Part shown: one piece after another, positions 1,857 to 16,887 of the stretch
Numbering within the stretch: position 1 is the first letter of the stretch
How the letters are laid out: each line of letters opens with the position of its first letter
Source of the DNA: an uncultured virus (IMG/VR IMGVR_UViG_3300035136_000035)
Taxonomy: Duplodnaviria > Heunggongvirae > Uroviricota > Caudoviricetes
DNA: 20,000 nt
Direction: 5' to 3' (one strand)
IMG/VR virus record: IMGVR_UViG_3300035136_000035
Notes under the pieces: model-generated
Database searches by the model: none
What the model saw: the letters and a program-made list of their open reading frames with translations, nothing else
Told to the model about the DNA's origin: nothing
Position numbers and translations under genes: made by a program

Positions 1857-2201
1857 ATGAAAGAATTAATATTAGGGAATTACAAAATAGAAAGTGATAA
1901 ATTTGGATTTATTATTTCAGAAAAGAAAATAAATAAAGGTCAATCTAAAAACAAAAAAAGTAATCCTGATAATATTGGTAAGGAATATTTTACTTATCAT
2001 ACTTATCATTCAAATATTGAAAGTGTAGTAACTAATCTATTAGAAAGAGGGGCAAGAGAATATATAGACGATTTAAAAAAAATGTTTTCTTTTTATGTGA
2101 AGATTAAAAATTCATTTCATAATTTTTTGGAATTAGAATTACAACGAAACATAACGTCAAAAGATAAAGCAAGTGTTTATAAAAGCACTAAAGTAACATA
2201 G
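1857..2201 (+). CDS. Phage hypothetical protein; C-terminus runs into the first attC-like site
   Basis: ORF track; the last ~16 codons lie within the element at 2149-2227. Confidence 0.7.
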   Translation: MKELILGNYKIESDKFGFIISEKKINKGQSKNKKSNPDNIGKEYFTYHTYHSNIESVVTNLLERGAREYIDDLKKMFSFYVKIKNSFHNFLELELQRNITSKDKASVYKSTKVT

Positions 2202-2227
2202 CGCATTAATTTTATACATTGTTATAC
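2149..2227 (-). repeat. attC-like site C1 (arms poorly matched, probably chimeric)
   Basis: ATAAC (2151-2155)...GTTAT (2221-2225). Right arm AATTTTATACATTGTTA (2208-2224) is identical to 2771-2787 in C3. Confidence 0.6.
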
Positions 2228-2239
2228 GCTTTTAATTAG

Positions 2240-2476
2240 GTGATTATGAATTTATTTAAGCAAAGAAAAACAACCCTATATAATGGGCAAAAAGTAAAAG
2301 AAGGCGATAAAGTATACTTCATAAATTCAGACGGTGTTAAATGTGAAGGATTAATTGAAAGAAGGCTTTTTGATTGCGTTCATTCAGATACAAATGAGAG
2401 GTTGAAAAAAGGCACATTATTCTTTTGGAACAACTCATTTAAGCCTTCTGATTATAGAAGTTTGGTTGTGTCTTAA
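2240..2476 (+). CDS. Cassette-borne hypothetical protein (ATG at 2246 is a likely start)
   Basis: ORF sits between C1 and C2. Confidence 0.7.
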   Translation: MIMNLFKQRKTTLYNGQKVKEGDKVYFINSDGVKCEGLIERRLFDCVHSDTNERLKKGTLFFWNNSFKPSDYRSLVVS

Positions 2477-2480
2477 TTGC

Positions 2481-2572
2481 ACACAAAGGACAGCGGTAAG
2501 AGTAGGCCGCTTTGTAGACTGCTCAAATTTAGTAATAGCTTTCATGCGGCTTACTTTTACCGCATGTTATAA
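2481..2572 (-). repeat. attC-like site C2 (core AAC changed to AAA)
   Basis: ACACAAA-GGACA-GCGGTAAGAGTAGGCCGC (2493-2510) ... GCGGCTTACTTTTACCGC (2546-2563)-AT-GTTA. 18-bp stem with 2 G:T positions. Confidence 0.75.
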
Positions 2573-2584
2573 ATTGTAAAAATT

Positions 2585-2740
2585 ATGGACGAATTTGAAG
2601 TACAATGTAATGAGTGCGATTGGCAAGGTTATGCACTTGATTTAGTAAGCAAAACAGCAGATTTAGACGACAAAGATTTTAAATACTGTCCTAATTGCGG
2701 GTCGGACGATATAGATGATATTGATTATGAAGATTATTAA
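2585..2740 (+). CDS. Cassette-borne 51-aa acidic zinc-ribbon protein MDEFEVQCNECDWQG...YCPNCGSDDIDDIDYEDY
   Basis: Hand-translated, absent from the ORF track. Two CxxC pairs; fills the interval between C2 and C3. Confidence 0.75.
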   Translation: MDEFEVQCNECDWQGYALDLVSKTADLDDKDFKYCPNCGSDDIDDIDYEDY

Positions 2741-2790
2741 TAACGTTGAGTATAAAATTTCGTTTTAATGAATTTTATACATTGTTACCG
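2738..2790 (-). repeat. attC-like site C3 (minimal)
   Basis: TAAC (2741-2744)-GTTGA-GTATAAAATT ... AATTTTATAC-ATT-GTTA (2784-2787); perfect 10-bp stem. Confidence 0.75.
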
Positions 2791-2832
2791 TGTCGTTTTG
2801 TGCGGTGGTAGTGTATAGCAAAATAAATAAAT

Positions 2833-3036
2833 ATGATTATAGATAATAGTAGATATTACGACACAGATGTACATTGTAGTACATGTGGAAAGGTTTACAG
2901 ACCTTCTAAAGATGCAGATATTAAAGAAAAGCTTAATGTACCTCCATTAGTTGCAAATATTTTTTGCAGCAGAGAGTGTAAAGAGAAGTACGATGAATTT
3001 TTAGAACAAAACCGAGCGGTGGCAAATGCACGGTAA
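2833..3036 (+). CDS. Cassette-borne small zinc-finger protein (CxxC...FCSxxC)
   Basis: CSTCGK and FCSREC motifs. The stop codon TAA is part of the TAAC core of C4. Confidence 0.7.
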   Translation: MIIDNSRYYDTDVHCSTCGKVYRPSKDADIKEKLNVPPLVANIFCSRECKEKYDEFLEQNRAVANAR

Positions 3037-3260
3037 CGGACAGGTATATGAGCCGTGCGGATTAACCCACGGACAATCGAACGAGGTACATAGTAATAAT
3101 TTTAAAATATTTTTTAGGGATGGAAAAATCTACAGAAACATTAGTAAAAATGATTGAATTAAATAATTCAATTAATCAGGTTAATAAAGAAAATGAAATG
3201 ACAAAAAATAACGAAACTCCAGCAACCGACAAGGCTATGCAATATGAGTCTGTGTTAGCA
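3031..3260 (-). repeat. attC-like site C4 (long loop carrying the start of the next gene; arms degenerate)
   Basis: TAAC at 3034-3037 and GTTA at 3254-3257. Each core matches its cassette partner end (9/9 and 13/14). Inner arms are only partly complementary (AGCCGTGCGG vs CCGACAAGGCT). Confidence 0.6.
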
Positions 3261-3401
3261 AACGTTTTATCAAATACAGACCATTGGTTTGACTGCAATT
3301 TGAGAGCTTTGCTTGGCGCAGAAATAGCCCTTATTAAAAAGGGGAAAAAGAAACAGATTGACAGAAAAATGTTAGCAGACTGGATTACTAACCACCTTTA
3401 A
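3120..3401 (+). CDS. Cassette-borne hypothetical protein starting inside C4 (alternative start 3198)
   Basis: Frame reads through the C4 arm as ...TPATDKAMQYESVLANV... Confidence 0.6.
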   Translation: MEKSTETLVKMIELNNSINQVNKENEMTKNNETPATDKAMQYESVLANVLSNTDHWFDCNLRALLGAEIALIKKGKKKQIDRKMLADWITNHL

Positions 3402-3409
3402 ATGTTTGC

Positions 3410-3455
3410 TAACTTGTTTATATAAACAATGAAAAATATTTCACTAATGGAAAAC
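3410..3455 (-). repeat. attI-like site of the left array
   Basis: 45/46 identical to the reverse complement of 18607-18652. Identity ends at the GTTA core. Contains the perfect palindrome TTGTTTATATAAACAA (3414-3429). The repeat is certain; the attI role is inferred. Confidence 0.6.
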
Positions 3456-3504
3456 TCTGAACAGGTAAGGAATAGAATAGTTGAACTCGTAAAAATTTAA
3501 AATT

Positions 3505-3735
3505 ATGACAGATTTAAAAAACGATATTATATTATTTAATAAGTGGTTATTCGATAATAATTTTATTCCTAATAATTCTTTTTTATGGTTTGATCACACA
3601 AAAAGTATAGATGAAATATTATTTTTTGAATTAGAAGAATTATTTGATGCATTTAACAATGGATTAACTATTGAAGAATTAATACAAAAAAAGAATAATG
3701 ATATAAAAATTTTTTTTAATAAATATTGTTTATGA
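3505..3735 (+). CDS. Hypothetical protein
   Basis: ORF track; aaaattATG start. Confidence 0.65.
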   Translation: MTDLKNDIILFNKWLFDNNFIPNNSFLWFDHTKSIDEILFFELEELFDAFNNGLTIEELIQKKNNDIKIFFNKYCL

Positions 3736-4394
3736 ATATGATAGAAAATAATTATTTAACAAATATTCCAAAAGATGTTTCAAATTATGGATTATGCAAA
3801 GTATTTGCTGTAAGGAGAGAAATAATACATATAAAACATATTTTAACTGAAATATTCGTTAGAAGAACTATTGATATTGAATATTATTTAATACAATTAG
3901 ATATGTCATTATTTAGTTATATTGAATATATTACAAATAGAATTAGGAAAATACATCATTTTACAAGAAAATACTTTAATGATATTGATAAAATTATAAA
4001 GGATGATAGAGATAAATTTTTCCCTACATTGAATTTATATAAAGGATTAAATAATTGTATTGTTTTAGATTTTGATGATGTTATAACTAAAAATAATTTT
4101 AATGAACTTTATGAACTATGTTGTATAAGATCAATAGTTCATGTATGTTCAGCGAATCCTACTATTGATATTAGCTTTTTTAATAAAAGAGGATTAAGTA
4201 TTCCATATCAAATTCATTCTATGAAAGGTAAAATAAAAAAGATAAAAAGATTATTAGAGATACAAAAAAAATATGATTATGTTTTTTATGTAGATAATGA
4301 GATTGAATATTTAAAATTTGCATGGATATTTGGGATTCAAACATATCATTGGAATAACAAAGAAATAAAATATTTTTCTCTTAAAAGTAGATAA
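3726..4394 (+). CDS. HAD-superfamily-like protein (C-terminal phosphatase-like domain)
   Basis: IVLDFDDVIT (motif I DxD), VCSAN (motif II), VFYVDNEIEYLKFAWIFGIQTYHW (motif IV-like). Confidence 0.55.
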   Translation: MFMNMIENNYLTNIPKDVSNYGLCKVFAVRREIIHIKHILTEIFVRRTIDIEYYLIQLDMSLFSYIEYITNRIRKIHHFTRKYFNDIDKIIKDDRDKFFPTLNLYKGLNNCIVLDFDDVITKNNFNELYELCCIRSIVHVCSANPTIDISFFNKRGLSIPYQIHSMKGKIKKIKRLLEIQKKYDYVFYVDNEIEYLKFAWIFGIQTYHWNNKEIKYFSLKSR

Positions 4395-6857
4395 ATGAAA
4401 CCTATTTTACAAAATATTGATTTTGGTAAATTACCACCTTCTGCAATTGATATAGAATGTGCTATTTTAGGGGCTGTTTTAAATTATCCAGAATCATTAA
4501 ATGAAATAACAGATATATTAATTCCAGAATCATTTTATAAGGATGAACATCAGAAGATATATTCAGCCATATTAGAACTTGATAGGAACGATAATAAGAT
4601 TGATATATTGACAGTTCAAGAAGAATTAAGAAAAAAAAATGAACTTGAAGATATAGGCGGTCCTGTATATATAACAGGATTGATTTCAAAAGTAATATCT
4701 TCTTCTCATATATTAGAACATGCACGTATAATAAAGGAAAAATATTTAGCTAGGGAATTAATTATGATATCTTCTGAAATTAATACTATGGCATTTGATG
4801 ATTCAGTAGACATATCTGATCGTATAGATAGAGCTAATCAATTATTTGATGACTTTAATGAGTTAGCAGCCGGCAAGTCATATTTTAAACATTTAAATGG
4901 AGTCCTTAATAAAGTTATGGAAATATTTGTAAAGAGAGAGGCATTGGCAAAAGAAGGTAAATTGGTAGGATTAAGAACTCCTTTAAAGGAACTTAATAAG
5001 TTAACTGGCGGATGGAGAAGTGAGTTGATTATTATTGCTGCTCGCCCTGGGGCGGGAAAATGTCTTGGAAGAGGGACAAAGATATTAATGTATGATGGAA
5101 GTTATAAATGTGTTGAAAATATTAATAAGAATGATTTGCTAATGGGAATTGATTCAAAACCACGAAAAGTATTACAAACTTGTATTGGAATTGATCAAAT
5201 GTATCTTATTAAACAAAAAAATGGATATAATTATAGATGTAATGGAAATCATATATTATCATTAAAAGTTAGTGGAAAAGATTTTCAAAAAACGTATGGT
5301 AAATTATATAATATATCTGTTAAAGATTATTTTAATTTACCAAATAGATTACAAGATAAATTAAAAGGGTATAAAATTGGGATTGAATTTGAAGAAAATA
5401 ATGATTTATTAATACCACCTTATTTATTAGGAGTATGGTTAGCTGATGGATCATCATCAAAATCAGTAATACATAATCCAGATATAGAAATTGAAGAATA
5501 TATAAAACAATATTGTTATGAGAACAATTTTAAGTATTCAAAAAAAATATATGATTTAAAAAACTGTCCAGAACATCGGATAACTGGAGAGTATTATAGA
5601 AATTTTTTACAATTACTTAGAAAATTAAATATATTAAATAATAAACATATTCCGAAAGAATATCTTATTAATTCAAGAAAAAACAGATTAGAATTATTGG
5701 CAGGTTTATTAGATGGAGATGGTTATAGATATGGTTTTTCTTATGAAATATCTCAAAAAAGAGAAATATTAGCACAGCAAATATTATATCTGTCAAATAC
5801 ATTGGGATTTGGAACATCTATATCGCATGAAAAGAAAAGAATAAAATCGATAGACTTTGAAGGATATTATTACAGATTACATATTAGTGGAGAAATAAAA
5901 GATATTCCTTGTAGAATTAATAGAAAAAAAGCACCTAATAGAAAAAAGTTAGCTAATTATTCAACAACTTATGGTGTTGAAATAATAAAAGATAAAATAG
6001 ATTTTTATTATGGGTTTGAATTAGACGGAGATGGATTATTTTTATTAGAAGATAATACAGTAACACATAATTCTGCAATAGCATTAGCTATATCAAAAAC
6101 ATTAGCATTTGAAAATATTCCAGTCTGTATATATAGTCTTGAAATGTCTGATTATTCGTTAGGAGAAAGGCTTGTATATGCAGAAGCAGACATGGATGAT
6201 GGAGATATATATAAGGCTAATCATGGGTACATGAATGATACTTTATGGGTGAAGATTAAAAGGTCTAAAGCAAGACTCGAAAAACTTCCTATATATATTG
6301 ATGATAATTCTTGTGTAGATGTTAATTATATAAAATCTCATTCAAGGATAATGAAGAAAAAGAATCTATGTGGTATTATTATAATAGATTATCTTCAATT
6401 AGCCTCTGGTAAAAGAGAAAGAGGCAAGAGTAAGGCTGAAATGATAAGCGATATTTGCAGGGAATTAAGAACACTAAGGAAGAATTTAGACATTCCAATT
6501 ATAGTTTTAAGCCAGTTAAATAGGGAGGTAGAAAAAAGAGGAGGAGATAAAAGACCTCAATTATCAGATATAAAAGAAAGTGGAGGTGTGGAAGAAAGTG
6601 CAGATATGATTATGTTTATTCATCGTCCAGCATATTACAATGTTCCTATTGATGAAAAAGGCAATTCGACCGAAAGAATGGGAGAACTAATAATTTCCAA
6701 GAATAAGAACGGTCCTATAGATACAATAAAATTCAGTCATAATAAAAGTCTTACTAAAATAACTGATTATTTACCAATTAAAGAAGAAAAAGAACCTGAA
6801 AAGATAAAAACACAACCGGATTTATTTAAAAATAGTTTAGATGATGTACCATTTTAA
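4395..6857 (+). CDS. dnaB: Replicative DNA helicase DnaB, intein-containing
   Basis: LPPSAIDIECAILGA N-terminus, AARPGAGK|S Walker A, SLEMS, IIIDYLQL, LSQLNREVE, RPQLSDIKESGGVEESAD, ELIISKNKNG. Confidence 0.97.
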   Translation: MKPILQNIDFGKLPPSAIDIECAILGAVLNYPESLNEITDILIPESFYKDEHQKIYSAILELDRNDNKIDILTVQEELRKKNELEDIGGPVYITGLISKVISSSHILEHARIIKEKYLARELIMISSEINTMAFDDSVDISDRIDRANQLFDDFNELAAGKSYFKHLNGVLNKVMEIFVKREALAKEGKLVGLRTPLKELNKLTGGWRSELIIIAARPGAGKCLGRGTKILMYDGSYKCVENINKNDLLMGIDSKPRKVLQTCIGIDQMYLIKQKNGYNYRCNGNHILSLKVSGKDFQKTYGKLYNISVKDYFNLPNRLQDKLKGYKIGIEFEENNDLLIPPYLLGVWLADGSSSKSVIHNPDIEIEEYIKQYCYENNFKYSKKIYDLKNCPEHRITGEYYRNFLQLLRKLNILNNKHIPKEYLINSRKNRLELLAGLLDGDGYRYGFSYEISQKREILAQQILYLSNTLGFGTSISHEKKRIKSIDFEGYYYRLHISGEIKDIPCRINRKKAPNRKKLANYSTTYGVEIIKDKIDFYYGFELDGDGLFLLEDNTVTHNSAIALAISKTLAFENIPVCIYSLEMSDYSLGERLVYAEADMDDGDIYKANHGYMNDTLWVKIKRSKARLEKLPIYIDDNSCVDVNYIKSHSRIMKKKNLCGIIIIDYLQLASGKRERGKSKAEMISDICRELRTLRKNLDIPIIVLSQLNREVEKRGGDKRPQLSDIKESGGVEESADMIMFIHRPAYYNVPIDEKGNSTERMGELIISKNKNGPIDTIKFSHNKSLTKITDYLPIKEEKEPEKIKTQPDLFKNSLDDVPF
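5061..6071 (+). mobile_element. Intein (337 aa) with LAGLIDADG homing endonuclease, inserted in the DnaB P-loop
   Basis: Starts CLGRGTKILMYDG after GK and ends VTHN followed by Ser. Block B CNGNHIL; endonuclease motifs LLGVWLADG and LLAGLLDGDG. Confidence 0.93.
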
Positions 6858-6867
6858 ATTATAAATT

Positions 6868-7221
6868 ATGAAAAACAAATTTCCAAGAGTTAAAATACCT
6901 CAATTAACATGTTTTTACAGGATGGAAATAAGACAAATATATTCTGATTATATTTTATTGCCATTTTGGAAAAGATGGATAGTATCATTATTAAATCAAA
7001 AAGAAAAATATTTATCATACCGTATTGATTTGATATGTCCTAATTTTCAGAATAAATTTAAAAAGAATGATTATTTTATGATGGGCAGGCATCAATTCAA
7101 AACGATAAGTATTGAAGAAAAATTAATCCATATAAGTACTATTGTTAAGGATTTAAGTATTTTTATACTCGATATAACACATATTCATTATTCTCACAGT
7201 TTAAATATATACAAGAAATGA
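6868..7221 (+). CDS. Hypothetical protein
   Basis: ORF track; ATGA overlap with the next gene. Confidence 0.65.
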   Translation: MKNKFPRVKIPQLTCFYRMEIRQIYSDYILLPFWKRWIVSLLNQKEKYLSYRIDLICPNFQNKFKKNDYFMMGRHQFKTISIEEKLIHISTIVKDLSIFILDITHIHYSHSLNIYKK

Positions 7222-7610
7222 GTAAACTAGACATTGAAAATATTGATCCAATTGTAAAAAAAGCATGGGAATTATTAGATGAATTTAATGAAAAGACATT
7301 AATTCCTATGAAAAACAATTTAGAAATTCAATGGAATGAATTACAAAATGGTATGAAAATTGAGAATTATGATATTTCAAAAGCTAGGTATGAAAAGTTT
7401 TATAATATATATCTTAGTTGTAAAGAAGCGTTGGATGATTATATTTCTTTATTAGTATCATTTTATAATATAAAGATTCAAATAGAAAAGAGTAAAATTA
7501 AAGAAAGTGTAGAAAAAGGAAGATTATTACCAAGCCAGATTACAGTTACAAAGTCTATAATAAATCTCATGTATGAATTATTTGATTATTATGAAAGGAA
7601 AAATAAATGA
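7218..7610 (+). CDS. Hypothetical helical protein
   Basis: ORF track; ATGA overlaps on both sides. Confidence 0.7.
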   Translation: MSKLDIENIDPIVKKAWELLDEFNEKTLIPMKNNLEIQWNELQNGMKIENYDISKARYEKFYNIYLSCKEALDDYISLLVSFYNIKIQIEKSKIKESVEKGRLLPSQITVTKSIINLMYELFDYYERKNK

Positions 7611-8791
7611 AAACAGATAATTTAACATTTTATAGGATACCATTACATACTGATGCATGGTATAGATTCAGGACAACAGGCTTAACAAAAGAAGATGCGA
7701 AACAATATAATTGTCCTGTTTTTACAGGAGGTGTCGGATCTTCTGAAATAGCTACAATATTAAGGCATCCACCATCTGAAAAAGCAAGGCCAATTATTCA
7801 AGATTATTATCATTGGAAATTAGGGACTATTATACCAGATAATGAAACAACTGAATTAATGATAGGAGGATTGGAAGATGAAGAAAGGATTAAAAATAGG
7901 TGGAGATGTTATGCTGGCGAAAATGATTTTATTGATAGATATTGGAATTGGTATAATGCACCTCCAAATGAAAAAAGTAAATATATTATCAGGAATGCTA
8001 AACGTATTAATGCTTATATAGTAAATAAAAAATATCCCTGGTTATTTAGTTCATTTGATTTTTGGGCTGAAAAAAATTCTCATTCATTTGACGGAATAAT
8101 TAAACTGGAAGGTTTTCCACTTGAAACAAAAAGTACTTCTTATTTTTATATTAGAAATTTTGAAGATCAATTTCCTGATTCGTTTAACATACAAGTACAT
8201 CAAGAGATGATTATATCTGAATCTGATTATGCAGAAGTAGGATTATTAGTTGATAGGAGGTTCAGGTGTATACCAGTCGAACGAAATGAAAAGCTTTGTA
8301 ATTGGATTCTTGAAAAATCGTATGAATTTTGGCAAACAGTTCTTAAAGGCAGGGAATATCTTGTTGAAAGAAATAAAGCCTTAGAAAAAAATAACATCGA
8401 AGAATTTAATAAATTTCAGGCTTATATAGACAGTTTAGAACCATTACCGGACGACAATCCTGCTTATGAAGATTTGATCAAAGAGAGACACGTTCAAGAT
8501 ATCGAGATGGTAAAAGGAAGTATAGAAGATTACAAGAATGCTAAATTATATGATTCTATTCTTGAATATGAAAAATTACTTGGTTCTAAAAAACAATTTG
8601 CTAAAAATTTATTATTAAAAAAATTAGATGATAATAATGCAGGTCAAATTGATTTTGATAAACTAGGAAAAGTAACACATATAATAGAGGGTAAAAAAAC
8701 AAATCCTACTTTTAGAGTAAGTTTAAAAGAATCAGTAAATAAGAAATCAATAAAAGAAGAATTTGATAAAATTAATTTTAATAAATTATGA
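7607..8791 (+). CDS. YqaJ-like / lambda-exonuclease-family recombination exonuclease
   Basis: TDAWYRFR...GVGSSEIATIL, GLEDE, YPWLFSSFDF, LETKS, IQVHQEM match the PD-(D/E)xK YqaJ pattern. Confidence 0.85.
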   Translation: MKTDNLTFYRIPLHTDAWYRFRTTGLTKEDAKQYNCPVFTGGVGSSEIATILRHPPSEKARPIIQDYYHWKLGTIIPDNETTELMIGGLEDEERIKNRWRCYAGENDFIDRYWNWYNAPPNEKSKYIIRNAKRINAYIVNKKYPWLFSSFDFWAEKNSHSFDGIIKLEGFPLETKSTSYFYIRNFEDQFPDSFNIQVHQEMIISESDYAEVGLLVDRRFRCIPVERNEKLCNWILEKSYEFWQTVLKGREYLVERNKALEKNNIEEFNKFQAYIDSLEPLPDDNPAYEDLIKERHVQDIEMVKGSIEDYKNAKLYDSILEYEKLLGSKKQFAKNLLLKKLDDNNAGQIDFDKLGKVTHIIEGKKTNPTFRVSLKESVNKKSIKEEFDKINFNKL

Positions 8792-9180
8792 AAACAACAT
8801 TAACACAACAAGAATTAAGTAATATAATAAGATTTTTTAGTATGTTTTATGTTACAAATCCAATATTAATTAATGAAAATATTAATATTGATGGATTAGA
8901 AACAAATGGATTTAAATTTATAAAAAATAAACAAATTAAAGGAATTGTTGCTTTTAGTAAAGAATATATTTTAAATGGTTTAGATATATTAATAAAAGAT
9001 TATTTTGAAATAATAGATAAATATTTTGAATTAAACAAATATATCAAATCAAAAAATCAACAAACATTATTTGATGTAACGGATTCTTTTGAAAAAATAA
9101 ATAATATTAAATATTATTCAATTGAAAATAATAATGAAGATATATCATTTGATAATATTATAACAATTGAAATTAAATGA
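8788..9180 (+). CDS. Hypothetical protein
   Basis: ORF track; ATGA overlaps. Confidence 0.65.
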   Translation: MKTTLTQQELSNIIRFFSMFYVTNPILINENINIDGLETNGFKFIKNKQIKGIVAFSKEYILNGLDILIKDYFEIIDKYFELNKYIKSKNQQTLFDVTDSFEKINNIKYYSIENNNEDISFDNIITIEIK

Positions 9181-9425
9181 AAACAAAAGAATTTAAAAAA
9201 TATGAAATAATAGAAGAAATAATATATAATGATGAATATAATGAAAAAGATATAACTATAAAAGTAGAAAAAGGTGAATATCGTCTATTTGATTTTATAG
9301 TATTAAATAATGGACTTTCTACTGCTATTAAATCTATAAATTATAATAAAGAATATAATGATGTTACAATTTATAATCCATTTTGTTGCAATTTTATAAA
9401 TTTTAGTTGTTTTATTGTAATGTAA
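9177..9425 (+). CDS. Hypothetical protein
   Basis: ORF track; ATGA overlap. Confidence 0.6.
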   Translation: MKTKEFKKYEIIEEIIYNDEYNEKDITIKVEKGEYRLFDFIVLNNGLSTAIKSINYNKEYNDVTIYNPFCCNFINFSCFIVM

Positions 9426-9440
9426 TTTTTTTTATAAAAT

Positions 9441-9677
9441 ATGAAAAAAAGAGAAGTTAAATATAGATCAATGAATAATCCTGATATTGAAAAAGAAGGA
9501 TATTTTGAATATTGGGGGCAACAGGACCAGGTTTTATTAAACGAAAAAAGAGAACCATTTGGGATACAAAGAAATTTAGTAGGAGTAGTAATAGATAAAG
9601 AAACTGGAGAATCTATAATTACTTTAGTTCAAAATATAAAATTTATTGATTATGCTAAGAAAAGAACTCATAGATGA
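9441..9677 (+). CDS. Hypothetical protein
   Basis: ORF track; co-oriented within the operon. Confidence 0.65.
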   Translation: MKKREVKYRSMNNPDIEKEGYFEYWGQQDQVLLNEKREPFGIQRNLVGVVIDKETGESIITLVQNIKFIDYAKKRTHR

Positions 9678-9939
9678 ATACAGGAAAGAAAATGGGTTTG
9701 AAATATTAAGAGAATCTGATTATCCTTCATATATTAAATATGGAAAAGAAACAAAGATGTTTCGATATTTAATAGTCATTTGGTTATATAACGAGATGAT
9801 TCTAGTGAGTTGTACTTCTAAGATTAAAATAAAAGATAATGAATTTGTGAATACAAAAGCTATAAAGAAAAAACCTTCATATGAAGAAATAGAATTATGT
9901 TTTACATTTCCATTTAAAGCAAAATCATTTTTAATATAA
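9646..9939 (+). CDS. Hypothetical protein
   Basis: ORF track; co-oriented within the operon. Confidence 0.6.
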   Translation: MIMLRKELIDEYRKENGFEILRESDYPSYIKYGKETKMFRYLIVIWLYNEMILVSCTSKIKIKDNEFVNTKAIKKKPSYEEIELCFTFPFKAKSFLI

Positions 9940-9943
9940 AATT

Positions 9944-10105
9944 ATGGATGAAAAATTAAATGAAATATTAGATATTCTTCATGGATATCCTAAAGAAGAA
10001 GCAATTGATATATTAAAAAAAGCTATAAAATATGTTAATGAATATCATTATAGTGCTTTTTTAGTAGAAAATGGAGAAACAAAACCAATATTTAATATTA
10101 AATAA
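9944..10105 (+). CDS. Small hypothetical protein (53 aa, MDEKLNEILDILHGYP...)
   Basis: Hand-translated; fills the gap between neighbouring ORFs; aaaattATG start. Confidence 0.65.
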   Translation: MDEKLNEILDILHGYPKEEAIDILKKAIKYVNEYHYSAFLVENGETKPIFNIK

Positions 10106-10118
10106 ATTTTAAAAAGTT

Positions 10119-10568
10119 ATGTATAAAGAAAAAATAATCTTAACAATTTTAGGAGACCCAAAAGCACAAAAAAGACATCGACATTTTTCTAAAAAATTTA
10201 ATAATGGAAAAGAATTTTCTGGTACTTATGATCCAAGTGCTAAAGAAAAAAAAGATTTTTTATTAACTGTTTTAAATAACAAACCGGAAAAACCATTTGA
10301 ATGTCCTATTTGTATAAAATTTTATTTTCATTTTTCCAGACCAAAAAATCATTATGGAACAGGAAAAAATTCTAATAAATTAAAATCAAATGCACCTTCT
10401 CTTTGTTCAAAAAAACCAGATTATGATAATTTATTAAAATTCGTAACAGATGCTTTAAATAAAATATATTTTAAAGATGATGCACAAGTATGTACTGGTA
10501 GTTTTTATAAATATTATAGTGAGAATCCAAGAACTGAAATAATAATAATTCCTTTATATGAAAGATAA
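10119..10568 (+). CDS. rusA: RusA-family Holliday junction resolvase
   Basis: GDPKAQKRHR N-terminus and KKPDYDNLLKFVTDALNKIYFKDDAQV catalytic motif. Confidence 0.92.
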   Translation: MYKEKIILTILGDPKAQKRHRHFSKKFNNGKEFSGTYDPSAKEKKDFLLTVLNNKPEKPFECPICIKFYFHFSRPKNHYGTGKNSNKLKSNAPSLCSKKPDYDNLLKFVTDALNKIYFKDDAQVCTGSFYKYYSENPRTEIIIIPLYER

Positions 10569-10848
10569 ACATGAATTAAATGAAGAAACTGCTTTATGGA
10601 ATGCATTTCGAGAAGAAGGAAGAAAAAGAACTATAAAAAAACAAAATGATGCTAAAGAATTATGTGAGTTATTATGTGGAGATTTAGGGATAGATTTTAA
10701 ATTAATACATCTTTGGCATTTCAGATTATCTCAAAATGGATTTCAGATTGATATATTTCCAACCAGACAACGGTATCATATAATTAACTCAAATCAAAGA
10801 GGAAGATATAAAGATTTACAAGGATTTATTTACTCTAAATTTAAATAG
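10558..10848 (+). CDS. Hypothetical protein
   Basis: ORF track; overlaps the rusA stop. Confidence 0.7.
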   Translation: MKDKHELNEETALWNAFREEGRKRTIKKQNDAKELCELLCGDLGIDFKLIHLWHFRLSQNGFQIDIFPTRQRYHIINSNQRGRYKDLQGFIYSKFK

Positions 10849-10849
10849 G

Positions 10850-11173
10850 ATGAAAAAAACAATTTTATTATCAGTATTACTTTTTACAAGTATTTTTATT
10901 TATGCTCAATATCCTGTAATACATATAGGAATAGTTGATAGCATTCGTCAAGTAAAACTTGACAGTATATGTCAAATAAGGGGACATGTAATAACTAGTT
11001 ATTGTACAAGTATGGAAGCAAATTGTCCTCCATATTATTTAGATTATCCAGACAGTACGGTAATGGTAATTCCTAATTGTAACAAGACAGAATGTATATG
11101 TCAGAGATGCGGGAGAAGTATATTACTACCTGCTAAAGAAAAACGATATACTATTTGGAGAAAAGAAGAATAA
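10850..11173 (+). CDS. Putative exported cysteine-rich protein
   Basis: MKKTILLSVLLFTSIFIYAQ looks like a Bacteroidetes signal peptide ending A|Q; 7 Cys including CICQRCG. Confidence 0.6.
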   Translation: MKKTILLSVLLFTSIFIYAQYPVIHIGIVDSIRQVKLDSICQIRGHVITSYCTSMEANCPPYYLDYPDSTVMVIPNCNKTECICQRCGRSILLPAKEKRYTIWRKEE

Positions 11174-11191
11174 TTTAATTTTAAAAAAATC

Positions 11192-11365
11192 ATGGAAATT
11201 ATACTATGGATTTTATTTGGATATTTAGTACAAGCTGTTATTTGTGCTATAATTAATATTTTAGTAGCTACAAGAATACCTAGAAGTGGTATTGATTTTT
11301 TAAGGTTAACATTTTTGCCTTGGTTATTATTGCACTTAGATGAAGTTAAACTAAAAAAATTATAA
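11192..11365 (+). CDS. Small membrane protein (57 aa, MEIILWILFGYLVQAVICAIINILVA...)
   Basis: Hand-translated; fills the gap; hydrophobic. Confidence 0.6.
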   Translation: MEIILWILFGYLVQAVICAIINILVATRIPRSGIDFLRLTFLPWLLLHLDEVKLKKL

Positions 11366-11366
11366 T

Positions 11367-11672
11367 ATGAACAAAGAAACTAAAAAATTAGAACAAGAAC
11401 CTGCATTTCCTTGTTTAGAATATAATGAACCTGGATATGGTGATGCTATAATTATTACTATAAATGGTGAAAAAAATATAATTCCATTTAAAGAAGGAAT
11501 GTCAAAAAGATTTTATGCAGCTTGTAAGGCTATGCAAGGAATATTATCAAATTCTGAAGCGTATAAAGTTATAACAGAAGATGCTGATAATCAAAATAAA
11601 TGTTGGGGCGAAATGATAATAAAACAATCGTATCAATTTGCAGATGAACTTTTAAAACAGGAAAACGAATAA
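11367..11672 (+). CDS. Conserved phage hypothetical protein
   Basis: PAFP...GMSKRFYAACKAMQGIL...SYQFADELL matches a widespread phage motif (PAFP..GMxLRDYFAAKAMQG..AYxxADAML). Confidence 0.75.
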   Translation: MNKETKKLEQEPAFPCLEYNEPGYGDAIIITINGEKNIIPFKEGMSKRFYAACKAMQGILSNSEAYKVITEDADNQNKCWGEMIIKQSYQFADELLKQENE

Positions 11673-11674
11673 TA

Positions 11675-11875
11675 ATGGAAAAGATATCTAAAAATTTATA
11701 TAAAGGAGAACTTATAACAAATCCAATGGATATTAAAAGACTTGTAGAAGAAAAACGAAGCGTATACATTGAACCTCATTTAGGAGTATGTCCTGCTGCT
11801 GTAATATTACATTGGCAGTTTGCTATAATTTATAGAATGATTTTAAATAATCAATTATATTATACTTATAAATGA
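11675..11875 (+). CDS. Hypothetical protein
   Basis: ORF track; ATGA overlap with the next gene. Confidence 0.65.
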   Translation: MEKISKNLYKGELITNPMDIKRLVEEKRSVYIEPHLGVCPAAVILHWQFAIIYRMILNNQLYYTYK

Positions 11876-12174
11876 ATGATATTAAAGAAATAATATATCA
11901 TCAAACGCCTAAATTATATGAGCGATATAAAAGACGAATTGTATTTGTATATAACAATATGGATTTATTATTAAAATTAGATAAACTTAGAAAAGAAAAA
12001 AAATGGGCGGCTTTTACTTTAAAAAATCCTTTAATAAAAAAAATCGCAAATAAAGCTAGACAATATATTGGTTATTCAAATAAAACATATGATGCTGATA
12101 TATGTTGGACATTATATATGATGGCTTTAGATTTACATAGAGAAAATATTAAATATCAACTTATAAACAATTAA
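11872..12174 (+). CDS. Hypothetical protein
   Basis: ORF track. Confidence 0.65.
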   Translation: MNDIKEIIYHQTPKLYERYKRRIVFVYNNMDLLLKLDKLRKEKKWAAFTLKNPLIKKIANKARQYIGYSNKTYDADICWTLYMMALDLHRENIKYQLINN

Positions 12175-12178
12175 AACA

Positions 12179-12529
12179 ATGGAAATAAAAACAGAATATT
12201 TTTCTTTAAATAAATTTGATATAATAACTATACCAAAATCTTCTGTTTTTATAGTAATTAAAAAATCAGATGAATTTAATCTTACAATAATTCCTTATAA
12301 AAATTTTAGATTTAAATGGATGTATTATATATATTGGTTTTTTATAAATATAAAAGAAATAATCAATAATTATATTACATGTATTAAATGTATTTTCAAT
12401 GATATTAGATATAAATTATTCAGAAAAAAAATTCAGAATAAGTTTAAATCTATACTAATAGATATTGAAAAATCATTTAAACAATATATTTTAAACGAAG
12501 TATTTAAAAATAATAACAAATTAAATTAA
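12179..12529 (+). CDS. Hypothetical protein
   Basis: ORF track. Confidence 0.6.
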   Translation: MEIKTEYFSLNKFDIITIPKSSVFIVIKKSDEFNLTIIPYKNFRFKWMYYIYWFFINIKEIINNYITCIKCIFNDIRYKLFRKKIQNKFKSILIDIEKSFKQYILNEVFKNNNKLN

Positions 12530-12535
12530 TAAATT

Positions 12536-13789
12536 ATGGAAAATACAACATCATTAGTAAAAAAAACAAGTAATGCACCTGCATTTTTAGAAGATTCATT
12601 TCAAACACTTGAAAAAGCATTAAATTATGCTAATTTATTATTAGAAAGTAAACTTGTTCCTGATCATTTTTATGAAAAAGGAAATGATAATAAACCTGAT
12701 TATACAAAAGGAAAACCAGGTGCATTATTAATGGTAATGCAACATGGTATGGAATTAGGATTTACTCCAACACAATCATTACAACAAGTAGTTCCTATAA
12801 ACGGATTATTAACAGTAAAAGGAGATGGATGTAAAAGTAAAATACTTCATTCTGGATTTTGCGAATTATGGAAAGAAGAAGAAACAGGTTCTATTGAAAA
12901 AGAAGATTATTCTATAAAAATAACTTCAAAAAGAAAAGATACAGGAGAACAAATAAGCCGTATATTTAGTGTTGATTTGGCTAAAAGGGCTGGATTATGG
13001 ATAACTAAAGAAAGATTATCAGGGCAAAATGGTTATAAATGGAAATTAAGTGCATGGTATAAATTTCCTGATCGTATGATTAGATATCGGGCATTAGGAT
13101 TTATAGCTAGAGATTTATATCCAGATGTATTACAAGGATCCTATATGTTTGAAGAAGTAAGAGATAATCCTGATGAAATGTCAACTACTATAACCACTTC
13201 TGATGGAAATATAATTCAATTACCTGAATCTAAAACAGAACATTTAAAACAAATATCAGATAATAAAAGTTCTTCAATTGTAGAAGATTTGGAAAAGAAA
13301 GATGAATTAATAAATTCTCAAAAAGAAAATCAGAATAAAAAAGAAATCAAAGAAGATAAACCTAAAAGAAGGGGAAGGCCAAAAAAAGACGAATCAATAG
13401 AAAATAAAGCCGTAGACGAAAAAAAACAAGAAGTGGATACAATTACTAATGAAGAAAAAAAAGATGAACCAGTGCAGTCTGAATTATCCACAGACAATAA
13501 ATTATTAGGTAAATATGGTAATCAAGGGGAAGTCTTTGTTAAAAATCGTATAGAAGTTATTAAAGAAAAATTAGCAAACATATTACCTTTACAGGAAAAT
13601 GGAGAAAGGGGATTTAGTGAAGTAAATGATTTATATTTTACCTTAACAGAAGATTTAGGAATTTCAGAAGAAAAATTTTCAAATATAAAAGTTGAGGTTC
13701 TTGAATTTGATCAATTCACTACATTAGAAGATATATGTTTTAAAGGAACAGAAGAACAGATATTGAAATTAATTGAAAAAGCTAAATAA
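12536..13789 (+). CDS. RecT-like single-strand annealing protein with a long charged C-terminal extension
   Basis: GMELGFTPTQSLQQVVPING, FSVDLAKRAGLW, AWYKFPDRMIRYRALGFIARDLYPDVLQG..EE; same operon as the YqaJ exonuclease. Confidence 0.8.
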   Translation: MENTTSLVKKTSNAPAFLEDSFQTLEKALNYANLLLESKLVPDHFYEKGNDNKPDYTKGKPGALLMVMQHGMELGFTPTQSLQQVVPINGLLTVKGDGCKSKILHSGFCELWKEEETGSIEKEDYSIKITSKRKDTGEQISRIFSVDLAKRAGLWITKERLSGQNGYKWKLSAWYKFPDRMIRYRALGFIARDLYPDVLQGSYMFEEVRDNPDEMSTTITTSDGNIIQLPESKTEHLKQISDNKSSSIVEDLEKKDELINSQKENQNKKEIKEDKPKRRGRPKKDESIENKAVDEKKQEVDTITNEEKKDEPVQSELSTDNKLLGKYGNQGEVFVKNRIEVIKEKLANILPLQENGERGFSEVNDLYFTLTEDLGISEEKFSNIKVEVLEFDQFTTLEDICFKGTEEQILKLIEKAK

Positions 13790-13947
13790 TGATATTCAGT
13801 AAAAGACTTAAATTAGAAAAAGAATATTTTGAATGGATAAAAGGAACGCAAATAAAAGATTGTCCATTTAATGTAATATCATTTTTAGATATAAAAGGAT
13901 ATTTAATAAATAAACCAAAACATGAAAACGATATTCATACATGGTAA
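13789..13947 (+). CDS. Small hypothetical protein (52 aa, MIFSKRLKLEKEYFEW...)
   Basis: Hand-translated; TAATG overlap with the RecT-like stop. Confidence 0.55.
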   Translation: MIFSKRLKLEKEYFEWIKGTQIKDCPFNVISFLDIKGYLINKPKHENDIHTW

Positions 13948-14197
13948 AACAAAATCAGGGCGCCGGTTTACAATAGCCGGTGTTCCTGATAAAGATAAAT
14001 TAAAGATAGGATTAGCAATATGCAATCCAAAAGACCAGTTTTGTAAAAAGATAGGAAGAAGTATTTCAGAAGGAAGGGCTAAAAATAAAACTTATTATTT
14101 TGAACTTTCTAATGATTTTAAAGAAAATATTCAAATAGTTAGATATTTTTCAGAAGTAATAATAAGAGAATGGAATTATCCATATAAAAAACGATAA
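13922..14197 (+). CDS. Conserved phage hypothetical protein
   Basis: GLAICNPKDQFCKKIGRSISEGRA matches a common phage GxAxCxPxDxFxKxxGRxIA motif. Confidence 0.7.
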   Translation: MKTIFIHGKTKSGRRFTIAGVPDKDKLKIGLAICNPKDQFCKKIGRSISEGRAKNKTYYFELSNDFKENIQIVRYFSEVIIREWNYPYKKR

Positions 14198-14198
14198 T

Positions 14199-14393
14199 AT
14201 GAAAAAAGTAATGCAAATAATGAAAACGGAAGCGCACGGGTACAACAAATATTTAACAGACAAATATTTGAATAATCTTACTATTGAAGAATTAAGATGT
14301 TTCGTACATCCACTTTCAAAGGAATACTACGACAAGATAATCAAAGAAATTGAACGACAAAAATCTAAACAAAATGAAACCAAGAAAATTTAA
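14199..14393 (+). CDS. Hypothetical protein
   Basis: ORF track. Confidence 0.6.
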   Translation: MKKVMQIMKTEAHGYNKYLTDKYLNNLTIEELRCFVHPLSKEYYDKIIKEIERQKSKQNETKKI

Positions 14394-14862
14394 ACTTATT
14401 AAAAAGTATCCGAAAGCAATTGAATTAAATATTGATCTTATTGTTGAATGGGATGAAAAAAAACTTTTTTATATTGCATTAATAAATAATAGTATTTGTT
14501 TTTTCCCTAAAGAAGAAATAGAAAACTATCATGGATTTTGGCAGGAAATAAAAGAAGAACCTGTTTTAATTACGGAAGATGGGGAAAAATTGTTTGAAGG
14601 TGATGAATATTGGTTTATAGATGAAGAATTTATAGCTTATCCAAATATAGTAGAAGATGGATGCGGAAAACGAAAAGATTACAAATATTTTTCAACCAAA
14701 GAATCAGCCAAAAAGTGGATAGAAGAAAACAAGCCTAAATGGAGTGATAAGGATATGATTGAATTTGCCGAAAAATGGGAATATGATAAACATCTATTAT
14801 GTTATGATATTAAAAAAGCATTAAAAACAAAAGAATATGCTAAAAAAGAAAAAACAGATTAA
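14374..14862 (+). CDS. Phage hypothetical protein (ATG 14374 preferred over TTG 14350)
   Basis: ORF track; MKPRKFKLIKKYP...LITEDGEKLFEGD. Confidence 0.65.
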   Translation: MKPRKFKLIKKYPKAIELNIDLIVEWDEKKLFYIALINNSICFFPKEEIENYHGFWQEIKEEPVLITEDGEKLFEGDEYWFIDEEFIAYPNIVEDGCGKRKDYKYFSTKESAKKWIEENKPKWSDKDMIEFAEKWEYDKHLLCYDIKKALKTKEYAKKEKTD

Positions 14863-15217
14863 ACAAGACGGTAAAGTATTATCTCAAAAAAAAGCGTTTT
14901 ATGAAGCATTTATATATTGGAAAGGAAACAATTTTCTTACTGGTAAAAAAACATTATTAGAATATTTAACTAATTCTAATTTTGCTCATGTTTTACCCAA
15001 AGGACAATTCAGATATTTTAAATATTACCCTAAAAATATAGTAATATTAACATTAGATCAACATACTTTATTTGATAATTTTACAGGTGAAAAATTTAAA
15101 ATCAGAGAAAAAGAACATCCAGAAGAAAATTGGGATAAATTATTTAACTTAGTAATTGAATTACAACAAGAATATGCTGTTTGGATTAAAGAAAATTCTC
15201 ATACCTATAAATTATAA
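14837..15217 (+). CDS. HNH-like nuclease-fold protein
   Basis: FAHVLPKG...KNIVILTLDQHTLFD gives H-N-H spacing; the zinc-binding cysteines are absent. Confidence 0.5.
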   Translation: MLKKKKQIKQDGKVLSQKKAFYEAFIYWKGNNFLTGKKTLLEYLTNSNFAHVLPKGQFRYFKYYPKNIVILTLDQHTLFDNFTGEKFKIREKEHPEENWDKLFNLVIELQQEYAVWIKENSHTYKL

Positions 15218-15391
15218 ATGGAAAGATTATTTCAAATAAATATAGGATATGCTTGTTTTGGTATAATAAGCGAAAATGATAAAATAATTCAAACAGCCCC
15301 AATAGGAAGATGGATGATAGGAAAAAGTCTTCAAGAAATAAAGCCTTATCTCAAAAGCAAAAAAGCTAAAGTAATTGAAATAAAAAGATGA
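15218..15391 (+). CDS. Small hypothetical protein (57 aa, MERLFQINIGYACFGII...APIGRWMIGK...)
   Basis: Hand-translated; abuts the upstream stop and has an ATGA overlap downstream. Confidence 0.7.
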   Translation: MERLFQINIGYACFGIISENDKIIQTAPIGRWMIGKSLQEIKPYLKSKKAKVIEIKR

Positions 15392-15813: not shown

Positions 15814-15828
15814 CCGGGCTTAATTTTT
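15796..15828. terminator. Bidirectional rho-independent terminator
   Basis: Stem AAGCCCGG (15800-15807) / CCGGGCTT (15814-15821) with an A run on the left and a T-rich run on the right, between convergent stop codons. Confidence 0.85.
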
Positions 15829-16551: not shown

Positions 16552-16571
16552 TGGTTAAATGGTTTAAAAAT

Positions 16572-16874: not shown

Positions 16875-16887
16875 TTTAATTTAATTT

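What the first reader, a model, noticed from the sequence alone, without database searches (positions are those of the whole stretch)
3410..3455. Shared 46-bp terminus of both arrays behaves like an attI site
Seen: 3410-3455 and the reverse complement of 18607-18652 are 45/46 identical. Read toward the array: GTTTTCCATTAGTGAAAWATTTTTCATTGTTTATATAAACAAG|TTA, then cassette-specific sequence (GCAAAC vs ACTGC). It has a 16-bp perfect palindrome next to the core and no nearby partner arm. Established: attI is conserved up to G|TT, and attI1 ends TAAAACAAAG|TT, similar to TATAAACAAG|TT here. Inference: this is the insertion site, with no adjacent intI, so new cassettes land between the array and the core operon. 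The recombinase would act in trans, from elsewhere in the phage or from the host.
Basis: partly seen in the sequence, partly recalled or inferred. Interest (0 to 1): 0.88.

Follow-up and report, generated by a model that had tools for sequence, protein, structure and literature searches.

The report
Orphan cassette docking site in phage
The two copies of this short sequence most likely mark where swappable gene cassettes enter a phage genome, as an integron's attI site does, but in a poorly described phage system that uses a small Xer-type enzyme whose gene is not in this window.

Summary
3410-3455 and the reverse complement of 18607-18652 are 45/46 identical (52 nt at 94%). Each copy starts at a TAAC that ends the last small gene of a GC-richer cassette array and faces a low-GC replication/recombination operon.

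The arrays are real. The box TTGCTAAC occurs 6 times against 0.49 expected. Cassettes have covarying complementary ends. One linker hairpin belongs to a family seen in 56 of 81 matches on viral contigs.

In relatives, a compact Xer-type tyrosine recombinase gene (265-271 aa, not a classical IntI) sits 40-56 nt downstream of a TAAC|TA..TATAT site at the same end of the arrays (15 of 15 loci). In three pairs with the same site and enzyme, the neighbouring cassette differs exactly at TAAC.

A weight matrix built from those sites ranks the two window copies first and second among all window positions.

I therefore read the 46-mer as an orphan docking site, equivalent to attI (confidence 0.65). No recombinase gene or remnant is in the window.

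Caveats: only the first ~20 nt fit the docking pattern, one related strain lacks the first 37 nt of the left copy, and activity is untested.

Earlier notes of this scan describe the same system on other DNA. My literature searches found only attC clusters in phages (Qi 2023).

The parts
3410..3461 (+). The first 20 nt, TAACTTGTTTATATAAACAA, fit the recombinase-proximal docking pattern.
   Evidence: repeat; matrix score 16.6 bits, joint top of the window; alignment with docking sites.
18601..18652 (-).
3410..3413 (+). TAAC core (G|TTA on the other strand), the inferred crossover point. It is the last 4 nt of the box TTTGCTAAC (3405-3413), which is 9/9 complementary to GTTAGCAAA at 3254-3262.
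18649..18652 (-). TAAC core of the right copy. Its TAA is the stop codon of ORF 19012-18650. The extended box reads ATTGCAGTTAAC.
3414..3429 (.). 16-bp perfect palindrome TTGTTTATATAAACAA. The second copy is at 18633-18648. A second, near-palindrome TGAAAAAT(A/T)TTTCA follows it.
   Evidence: (two mini-hairpins only).
3429..3500 (+). Small frame that opens inside the repeat (MKNISLMENSE.., 23 aa). Its right-hand counterpart is 18633-18517 (MKNFSLMENNE.., 38 aa, hydrophobic). Whether either is real is unknown.
   Evidence: Read; no similarity to recombinase N-termini.
2198..3413 (+). Left cassette array (GC 0.30-0.34 against 0.16-0.18 just after it). Units end at TAAC 2741-2744, 3034-3037 and 3410-3413. 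The array starts after TAAC 2194-2197 at the end of ORF 1857-2201. ORFs: 2240-2476, 2585-2740, 2833-3036, 3120-3401.
   Evidence: The hairpin at 2745-2783 has the TCGTTTTAATG loop of the viral family.
18649..20000 (-). Right cassette array, which runs off the window. Units end at TAAC 19875-19878, 19472-19475, 19091-19094 and 18649-18652. ORFs: 19811-19485, 19360-19109, 19012-18650.
   Evidence: 5 paired-end units against 0.47 in shuffles, 0 of 200 reaching 5; the related strain X3 stops matching at 19473, inside a TAAC box.
2485..2543 (+). Second shared linker element (the other copy is 19416-19474 on the minus strand). It matches a 76-kb IMG/VR phage contig at 100% over 48-53 nt, where it is flanked by ACCTAAC...GTTAGGC.
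3505..15813 (+). Low-GC core operon headed by the left copy: intein-bearing DnaB helicase 4395-6857, RecE-like 7607-8791, RusA 10119-10568, RecT-like 12536-13789.
15827..18394 (-). Convergent core operon headed by the right copy (HU-like 16270-16551, DUF6745 protein 16888-18105). The two operons meet at the bidirectional terminator 15800-15821.

Best explanation
The 46-mer is an orphan docking site, the functional equivalent of an integron attI, in a phage-borne cassette system. In this system one-gene cassettes (hairpin linker, then gene, then TAA|C) are exchanged by a compact Xer-type tyrosine recombinase at a G|TTA / TAA|C core. The 46-mer is the fixed side of the first crossover. Each copy sits between a variable cassette array and a core operon, so new cassettes would enter next to it and be transcribed in the same direction as the core genes. 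No recombinase gene lies in the window, so the enzyme would have to come from elsewhere in this phage, a co-infecting phage or the host. Shown: the repeat, the TAAC junction, the cassette anatomy, the position of recombinase genes in relatives, and the sequence fit of the first 20 nt. Inferred: that recombination happens here, which strand is cut, and where the enzyme comes from.
For: (1) The two copies are 45/46 identical, and different cassettes abut them exactly at TAAC. (2) The arrays are cassette arrays. TTGCTAAC occurs 6 times against 0.49 expected, with 0 of 200 shuffles reaching 6, and all six lie in the GC-richer flanks. Units have 8-9/9 complementary ends GTTAnnnnn...nnnnnTAAC: right array 5 against 0.47 (0 of 200 shuffles), left array 3 against 0.88 (16 of 200). 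Contig G001 has 8 units with eight different box sequences against 2.5 expected (2 of 200). (3) The linker at 2745-2783 belongs to a hairpin family with an invariant TCGTTTTAATG loop and covarying stems. The family also occurs in Polaribacter phage P12002L (its published attC1), in G001, and in 56 of 81 pattern matches on 80 fetched IMG/VR loci. (4) Natural variation supports a TAAC crossover. P12002L and P12002S (about 99% identical core) differ by whole units whose junctions lie at ..AAC| with only 4-6 shared bases, and the order of their cassettes differs. The conserved block ends exactly where P12002L's own array-terminal element begins. In the window's own lineage, contig X3 matches 18354-19473 with 1 difference and stops inside the TAAC box at 19472-19475. 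(5) Six of 55 hairpin-bearing viral loci carry a tyrosine recombinase (Phage_int_SAM_4 + Phage_integrase; intact ones 265-271 aa). In 6 of 6 it is on the hairpin's strand and downstream of it. (6) In 15 of 15 loci found with that recombinase, the gene is preceded by TAAC|TA(T/G)..TATAT 40-56 nt upstream. Three pairs (L136/L137, L138/L139, L146/L147) share the site and enzyme but have different cassettes upstream, with the junction at TAAC. (7) A 20-nt weight matrix from 12 unique docking sites gives its two best scores in the window (about 40,000 positions, both strands) to the two 46-mer copies: 16.6 bits against 11.8 for the next. The copies are 17/20 identical to the L141 site. (8) G001 (3 copies) and P12002L (2 copies) also carry lineage-specific conserved elements that start at the last TAAC of each array. 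Counting the 2 window copies, 7 of 7 such elements lie at array ends.
Against: No tyrosine recombinase was found among 38 window ORFs, and tblastn with 5 recombinases finds no remnant (best E 0.7). G001 (78 ORFs; PF00589 search) and P12002L also have none, so nothing shows that an enzyme is available. The matrix score is not decisive alone: the best score in 30 shuffled windows averaged 12.6 and reached 19.4. Only the first ~20 nt fit. Over the full 46 nt, gapless identity to docking sites is 21-30 of 46, and the second palindrome and the ATG are unexplained. In related strain X3 the match to the core begins at 3447, so the first 37 nt of the left copy are not conserved there. P12002L's positional analogue is the published attC2. 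It was predicted as an attC and recombined by IntI1 as a folded single strand, and it is the strand opposite to the genes that is active. It and G001's element do not score with the docking matrix. Two of 2 recombinase-bearing contigs tested hold only one copy of their docking sequence. P12002S array A has no terminal element in the region examined.
Confidence: 0.65

Rival explanations
1. It is a regulatory element (promoter, operator or leader) shared by the two convergent core operons. The two adjacent palindromes would bind a dimeric regulator, and the ATG would open a short leader frame. Arrays merely sit upstream of it because insertions are tolerated there.
For: Both copies point with transcription at the head of the two operons, which meet at a terminator. 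The element holds two palindromes and an ATG conserved through 11 codons. In recombinase-bearing relatives the equivalent ~55 nt must also carry the recombinase gene's expression signals. This reading is not exclusive of the docking-site reading.
Against: No Bacteroidota-type (TTTG..TAnnTTTG) motif matches in the element, and it is not among the listed sigma-70-like sites (95 weaker sites were not shown). The shared motif AAAAAT..CAsTAA occurs nowhere else in the window or in G001. This reading does not explain why identity starts exactly at TAAC or why the first 20 nt match recombinase-proximal sites. P12002L's terminal element at 29172-29240 has no downstream gene.
Confidence: 0.15
2. It is the first part of an ordinary folded attC-type site belonging to the last cassette of each array, like P12002L_attC2.
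For: The positional analogue in P12002L was predicted by HattCI plus Infernal as an attC and was recombined with attI1 by IntI1. Another linker element in this window (2485-2543 / 19416-19474) is likewise conserved only in its first arm in the right array.
Against: There is no second arm and no GTT within the conserved 52 nt apart from the palindrome. Folds are no better than shuffles. Three different genes (Mom-like gp53 and methyltransferase gp35 in P12002L, gp51 in P12002S) precede the same terminal element in P12002L/S (100% over 68-69 nt), with boxes matched to each cassette. That fits a fixed site, not a cassette-borne attC. All 7 terminal-element copies lie at array ends and none is internal.
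Confidence: 0.1
3. It is a short homology 'linker' for general recombination, like the PeSL regulatory cassettes of T4-type phages. The phage's own RecE/RecT/RusA would swap modules between co-infecting phages, with no site-specific enzyme.
For: The phage encodes RecE-like, RecT-like and RusA proteins. X3's left breakpoints (1861 and 3447) are not at TAAC boxes. One linker is a chimera broken in its loop. PeSL biology is from Arbiol 2010, PMC2839356 (abstract only).
Against: Junctions between P12002L and P12002S, and between docking sites and cassettes, share only 4-6 bases, too few for homologous exchange. The covarying 9-nt cassette ends and the associated tyrosine recombinase are not explained. 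Only 2 copies exist in 20 kb.
Confidence: 0.06
4. The two inverted copies are the ends of an invertible 15-kb segment (a DNA invertase or Xer-type switch), or simply a relic of an inverted duplication.
For: The element is an inverted pair 15,139 nt apart that flanks the whole core.
Against: No invertase or resolvase domain was found in 38 ORFs. Each copy is co-oriented with its own operon, so inversion would change little. The flanks share nothing else except one linker. No strand-changing joint appears among the 15 joints listed of 40 (25 were not shown).
Confidence: 0.04

Closest known systems
attI of classical integrons (for example attI1 beside intI1)
   Same: It is a fixed sequence ending at a G|TT core, directly followed by the first of a row of cassettes. 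Cassette ends are complementary to their own far box. Read on the strand opposite to the cassette genes, the relatives' recombinase gene diverges from the array as intI does.
   Different: There is no adjacent recombinase here. The relatives' enzyme is a 265-271 aa Xer-type protein that scores below the integron-integrase cut-off and matches it in two stretches (149.6-159.2 bits against 265). Cassette genes point toward the site, so the hairpin travels upstream of its gene. There are two inverted copies in one genome.
CALINs (attC clusters without integrase) in virulent phages, especially Polaribacter phage P12002L (Qi et al. 2023, PMC9892861; abstract, section 3.4, passages and the supplementary file's first part (which holds Table S3) read)
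   Same: It is the same cassette family. P12002L_attC1 has the window's hairpin design and the identical loop. P12002L_attC2 is P12002L's own array-terminal element, the positional analogue of the 46-mer, and IntI1 recombines it.
   Different: The paper predicts only two attC sites, 'in divergent directions'. In the parts I read, it does not describe the long arrays, the duplicated terminal element, the TAA|C junctions against P12002S or a Xer-type recombinase. The window's 46-mer has no attC-like fold.
attG secondary genomic sites for integron cassettes (Loot et al., bioRxiv 10.1101/2022.09.11.507474; abstract and section 33 read)
   Same: Both are double-stranded sites outside a classical integron where cassettes can land. 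attG has a short functional core of about 18 nt around G|WT and no adjacent integrase.
   Different: attG sites are dispersed and unrelated to one another. Here the site is duplicated, conserved and matches the site beside a dedicated recombinase in relatives.
PeSL regulatory cassettes of T4-type phages (Arbiol et al. 2010, PMC2839356, abstract only; Comeau et al. 2014, PMC4122927, search listing only)
   Same: Both are conserved intergenic elements that bound hypervariable small genes between core genes of virulent phages.
   Different: PeSLs are many-copy promoter-terminator units exchanged by homologous recombination. Here junctions share 4-6 bases, ends covary and a tyrosine recombinase is associated.
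Xer/dif-type sites (XerC/D, archaeal XerA)
   Same: The relatives' enzyme scores best against the XerA-type model (172-194 bits, below the 220 cut-off). The site holds a short AT-rich palindrome next to the crossover.
   Different: There is no 11-6-11 dif architecture. The enzyme is linked to gene cassettes, not to chromosome dimer resolution. This comparison rests on family scores only.

Membership tests
Classical integron attI | Adjacent integron integrase gene (IntI with its extra domain) | tested here: not met
   No tyrosine recombinase domain in 38 window ORFs and no remnant by tblastn. The relatives' enzymes score 149.6-159.2 bits on TIGR02249 against a cut-off of 265, in two stretches.
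Classical integron attI | G|TT(RRRY) crossover core at the junction with the first cassette | tested here: met
   Read toward the arrays, the junctions are ..AAACAAG|TTAGCAA and ..AAACAAG|TTAACTG. GTT is present, and the RRRY part fits only partly.
Classical integron attI | Cassette genes read away from attI, with the attC downstream of each gene | tested here: not met
   All array ORFs read toward the 46-mer. P12002L/S junctions show that the hairpin linker travels with the gene downstream of it.
Classical integron attI | Integrase binding and attI x attC recombination | not testable with these tools
   This needs a recombination assay.
   Both window copies do so, as do 15 of 15 recombinase-proximal sites.
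   The matrix from 12 unique sites gives the two copies the window's two top scores (16.6 bits, next 11.8). They are 17/20 identical to L141. The best score in 30 shuffles averaged 12.6 and reached 19.4.
   Searches find none, hence 'orphan'. The rest of the genome is not held.
   The two copies have unrelated neighbours. Caveat: strain X3 does not keep the first 37 nt of the left copy.
Integron attC site | Imperfect hairpin with R''/L''...L'/R' boxes | tested here: not met
   There is no second arm. Folds on both strands are no better than shuffles. My strict scanner found no such site at either copy.
Integron attC site | Detection by the IntegronFinder/HattCI models | not testable with these tools
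   These models are not available here. Rfam gave no relevant hit.
PeSL (T4-type promoter-early stem-loop) | Strong sigma-70-like promoter plus terminator stem-loop, in many copies | tested here: inconclusive
   No terminator-like site lies at either copy, and no listed promoter-like site does (95 weaker sites not shown). Only 2 copies exist.

The most novel reading that the evidence does not exclude
Virulent Bacteroidota-type phages run their own integron analogue. Compact Xer-type recombinases insert one-gene cassettes at TAA|C docking sites, with the cassette genes in the reverse polarity to bacterial integrons, so that they are read through into core operons. This phage keeps two orphan docking sites that flank its replication module. 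It can therefore still gain and lose counter-defence or takeover genes using an enzyme supplied in trans by a co-infecting phage, the host or a distant gene of its own.
Probability: 0.45. Interest if true: 0.85.

Novelty: new variant of a known kind. Interest (0 to 1): 0.72.

Why it matters
Integrons are regarded as bacterial devices defined by IntI. Phages were only recently shown to carry stray attC clusters. If this reading holds, the 46-mer gives a concrete, testable landing site for a phage-borne cassette-capture system with a different, smaller enzyme and reversed cassette polarity. It would explain how the hypervariable small-gene regions next to core operons in these phages are built. 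It would also show that a phage lacking the enzyme can keep functional landing sites, which points to gene exchange during co-infection. The site plus a relative's recombinase would be a ready pair for a recombination assay.

Tried and rejected
- Whole genome: none is held for this window.
- Close relatives: megablast and blastn of the window or array against the phage collection found nothing. tblastn of DnaB found only relatives at 41% identity or less, and their loci L001/L002 show no comparable repeats.
- Exact 23-mer of the element: 0 hits in IMG/VR. The 4 metagenome loci are one unrelated AT-rich sequence sharing only 24 nt. The 1 hit in genome contigs lies inside a Tamlana coding region. 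I treat all of these as chance.
- Sequencing runs: no RNA holder is listed. Only contigs were laid, and most joints and loose ends were not shown, so the X3 sequence left of 3447 could not be read.
- RNA genes: Rfam gave one hit, far below threshold and unrelated to the element (E 0.65), and the tRNA scan gave nothing.
- Promoter motifs: the Bacteroidota promoter pattern gave 2 matches against 2.17 expected, neither in the element.
- attC scanner: my strict R/L-box scanner was not enriched (window 6 against 2.8), so it neither supports nor rejects attC status of the linkers.
- G001's terminal element was found only in G001 itself.
- Integron integrase TIGR02249: 0 of 301 sampled Flavobacteriaceae genomes. 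No control genome rang, so this is weak.
- The shared motif AAAAAT..CAsTAA occurs only in the terminal elements themselves.
- Extra copies of docking sequences: none in 2 of 2 recombinase-bearing contigs tested (36% and 50% complete).
- Cellulophaga phage phi12:1 has no annotated integrase near its shared methyltransferase.
- Remnant-recombinase idea for the small frames: no similarity found.
- Literature searches (passage check) found no description of a Xer-type, phage-borne cassette system. bioRxiv supplements are closed, and figures (for example Fig. 4 of Qi 2023, with the attC2 junction) are not held.

Full report
**What is there.** The window is a phage replication/recombination region. 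A plus-strand operon (3505-15813) encodes an intein-bearing DnaB helicase, a RecE-like exonuclease, RusA and a RecT-like protein. A minus-strand operon (18394-15827) converges on it at a bidirectional terminator at 15800-15821. Outside both operons lie GC-richer stretches (0.30-0.37 against 0.14-0.3 in the core) of small co-oriented ORFs. The reported element sits exactly at both transitions. 3410-3455 and the reverse complement of 18607-18652 are 45/46 identical. The pair extends to 52 nt at 94%. The two flanks share only this element and one 59-nt linker, in the same order. Each copy starts at a TAAC. On the right, its TAA is the stop codon of the last array gene. On the left, the TAAC ends the box TTTGCTAAC.

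**The flanks are cassette arrays.**
- TTGCTAAC occurs 6 times against 0.49 expected (0 of 200 shuffles reach 6), only in the flanks.
- Segments are bounded by complementary 9-mers GTTAnnnnn...nnnnnTAAC. The left array has 3 such units (8-9 of 9 matched; 0.88 expected, 16 of 200 shuffles reach 3). The right array has 5 (0.47 expected, 0 of 200).
- The 59-nt linker led to a 76-kb IMG/VR phage contig, G001 (terminal repeat, 92% complete by CheckV). There the linker is flanked by ACCTAAC...GTTAGGC.
- A 3.4-kb row of small genes plus a DNA methyltransferase is wedged between G001's SbcD-like and SbcC-like genes. It shows eight units with eight different, self-complementary box sequences (2.5 expected, 2 of 200 shuffles).
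- G001 has its own conserved element, in 3 copies, which starts at the last TAAC of each row.

**Link to print.** Qi et al. 2023 (PMC9892861) reported attC clusters without integrase in virulent phages, including Polaribacter phage P12002L.
- P12002L has the same linker design: TAAC, 5-6 nt, stem, loop TCGTTTTAATG, stem, 3 nt, GTTA. The loop is identical to that of the window's 2745-2783 hairpin, and the stems covary.
- P12002L also has a 69-nt element, 100% identical at two loci, that begins at the last TAAC of each of its two arrays.
- Their supplementary Table S3 shows that 'P12002L_attC1' is an internal linker (it gave no recombinants). 'P12002L_attC2' is this terminal element. IntI1 recombined it with attI1, and no recombinants were obtained for its top strand. 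I take that strand to be the gene-sense strand, from the primer design of their aadA7 control and my recollection of the class 1 3'-conserved segment.
- So the nearest characterised analogue of the 46-mer was classified as an attC.

**Where the crossover lies.** The sister phage P12002S is about 99% identical in the core but differs by whole units.
- The 5-kb shared block ends exactly where the terminal element begins (..gtgggTAAC|aacgg.. against ..catagAAC|aacgg..). A Mom-like gene sits upstream in one phage and an unrelated gene in the other.
- A methyltransferase unit begins right after TAAC in both phages behind different neighbours and ends at ..AAC.
- The order of the units differs between the two phages.
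- Only 4-6 bases are shared at these junctions, too few for homologous recombination.
- The mobile unit is therefore linker plus the gene downstream of it plus ..TAA|C. The terminal element is on the fixed side of the first crossover.
- In the window's own lineage, a contig of run X3 matches 18354-19473 with one difference and stops inside a TAAC box. On the left, however, X3 resumes only at 3447, so it lacks the first 37 nt of the left copy.

**The enzyme.** After I had reached the point above, earlier notes of this scan pointed to a small Xer-type recombinase in such systems. I tested that lead myself.
- A degenerate pattern for the hairpin found 105 IMG/VR stretches. 80 were fetched, and 56 of their 81 matches show the full hairpin plus GTT.
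- Six of the 55 loci with the full hairpin hold a Phage_int_SAM_4 + Phage_integrase protein. Intact ones are 265-271 aa. All six are on the hairpin's strand and downstream of it.
- They score best on the XerA-type model (172-194 bits, cut-off 220). On the integron-integrase model they score 149.6-159.2 bits (cut-off 265), in two stretches.
- Searching with one of them gave 17 loci. In 15 of the 15 loci that keep the gene's start region, the gene is preceded at 40-56 nt by TAAC|TA(T/G)..TATAT.
- Three pairs with the same site and enzyme carry different cassettes upstream, with the junction at TAAC.
- Read on the strand opposite to the cassette genes, this is the classical integron layout (recombinase, site, G|TT, cassettes), except that the cassette genes are inverted.

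**Does the 46-mer belong to that site class?**
- A 20-nt weight matrix from 12 unique recombinase-proximal sites gives its two highest scores in the window to the two copies (16.6 bits, next 11.8). They are 17/20 identical to the L141 site.
- The best score in 30 shuffles averaged 12.6 and reached 19.4, so the match is supportive rather than conclusive.
- Beyond 20 nt the similarity is weak, at 21-30 of 46.
- G001's and P12002L's terminal elements do not score with the matrix. P12002L's element shares a 13-nt run with one docking region.
- The window holds no recombinase gene or remnant, and neither do G001 or P12002L.
- Two recombinase-bearing contigs hold only one docking copy each.

**Verdict.** It is not a classical attI. 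The associated enzyme family is Xer-like, the cassette polarity is reversed, and function is inferred from anatomy and comparison. A regulatory role for the remaining ~26 nt (second palindrome, ATG) is open and not exclusive. My searches found no description in print of this phage system beyond the attC clusters of Qi et al.. Earlier notes of this scan describe it on other DNA.

Noticed in passing
window 4395-6857 (+): The DnaB-type helicase carries an intein (Hint plus LAGLIDADG domains at about residues 223-500). Contigs of runs X4 and X6 skip 5061-6084 with 11 other letters between, so these relatives have alleles without most of the intein.
   Followed up: partly
window 17542-17935 (-), inside ORF 16888-18105: There are about 22 tandem copies of a 12-nt unit inside the DUF6745 protein gene, giving a 4-residue peptide repeat.
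   Followed up: no
window 1041-1290 (+): A Bacteroidota-type promoter match (TTTG-N23-TAtcTTTG, 1041-1075) precedes a GC-richer 200-nt non-coding stretch upstream of ORF 1297. It may be a leader or small RNA. There is no Rfam hit.
   Followed up: no
window 2485-2543 and 19416-19474; L014 5047-5099 (G001 25047-25099): A 59-nt linker element is shared by both arrays. It matches an otherwise unrelated 76-kb phage contig at 100% over 48-53 nt. In the left array it forms a long hairpin with 2545-2565 (z -4.6). In the right array its second arm is replaced. It contains TTTG-N21-TA..TTTC, a near-match to a Bacteroidota promoter.
   Followed up: partly
window 2194-2197 and 3410-3413: The left array starts after a TAAC at the end of core-like ORF 1857-2201. 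Without the array, that ORF would run into the 46-mer and stop at its TGA. This may be the ancestral empty site. Strain X3 differs over 1862-3446, more than the array alone.
   Followed up: no
L020 (P12002L) 29172-29240 and 37198-37266; L021 (P12002S): The published attC2 of P12002L is a 69-nt element duplicated at the ends of two arrays. At one locus the following ATG is ATT and no gene follows. P12002L and P12002S carry related methyltransferase units in a different order.
   Followed up: yes
L139 about 290-355: Next to one docking site lies a gene-less unit (GTTA..TCGTTTTAATG..TAAC), a bare hairpin cassette.
   Followed up: no
G001 (L014/L015) 40065-43440: A cassette row with a DNA methyltransferase splits the SbcD-like/SbcC-like gene pair of a crAss-like-looking phage. 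Two convergent gene blocks meet at a strong terminator at 32920-32969, the same overall layout as the window.
   Followed up: partly
G001 27236 and 27781 (L014 7236, 7781): The palindrome ATGTTATATAACAT occurs twice in a 1.5-kb non-coding region. It has GTTA/TAAC halves like the cassette boxes and may be an operator or origin element.
   Followed up: no
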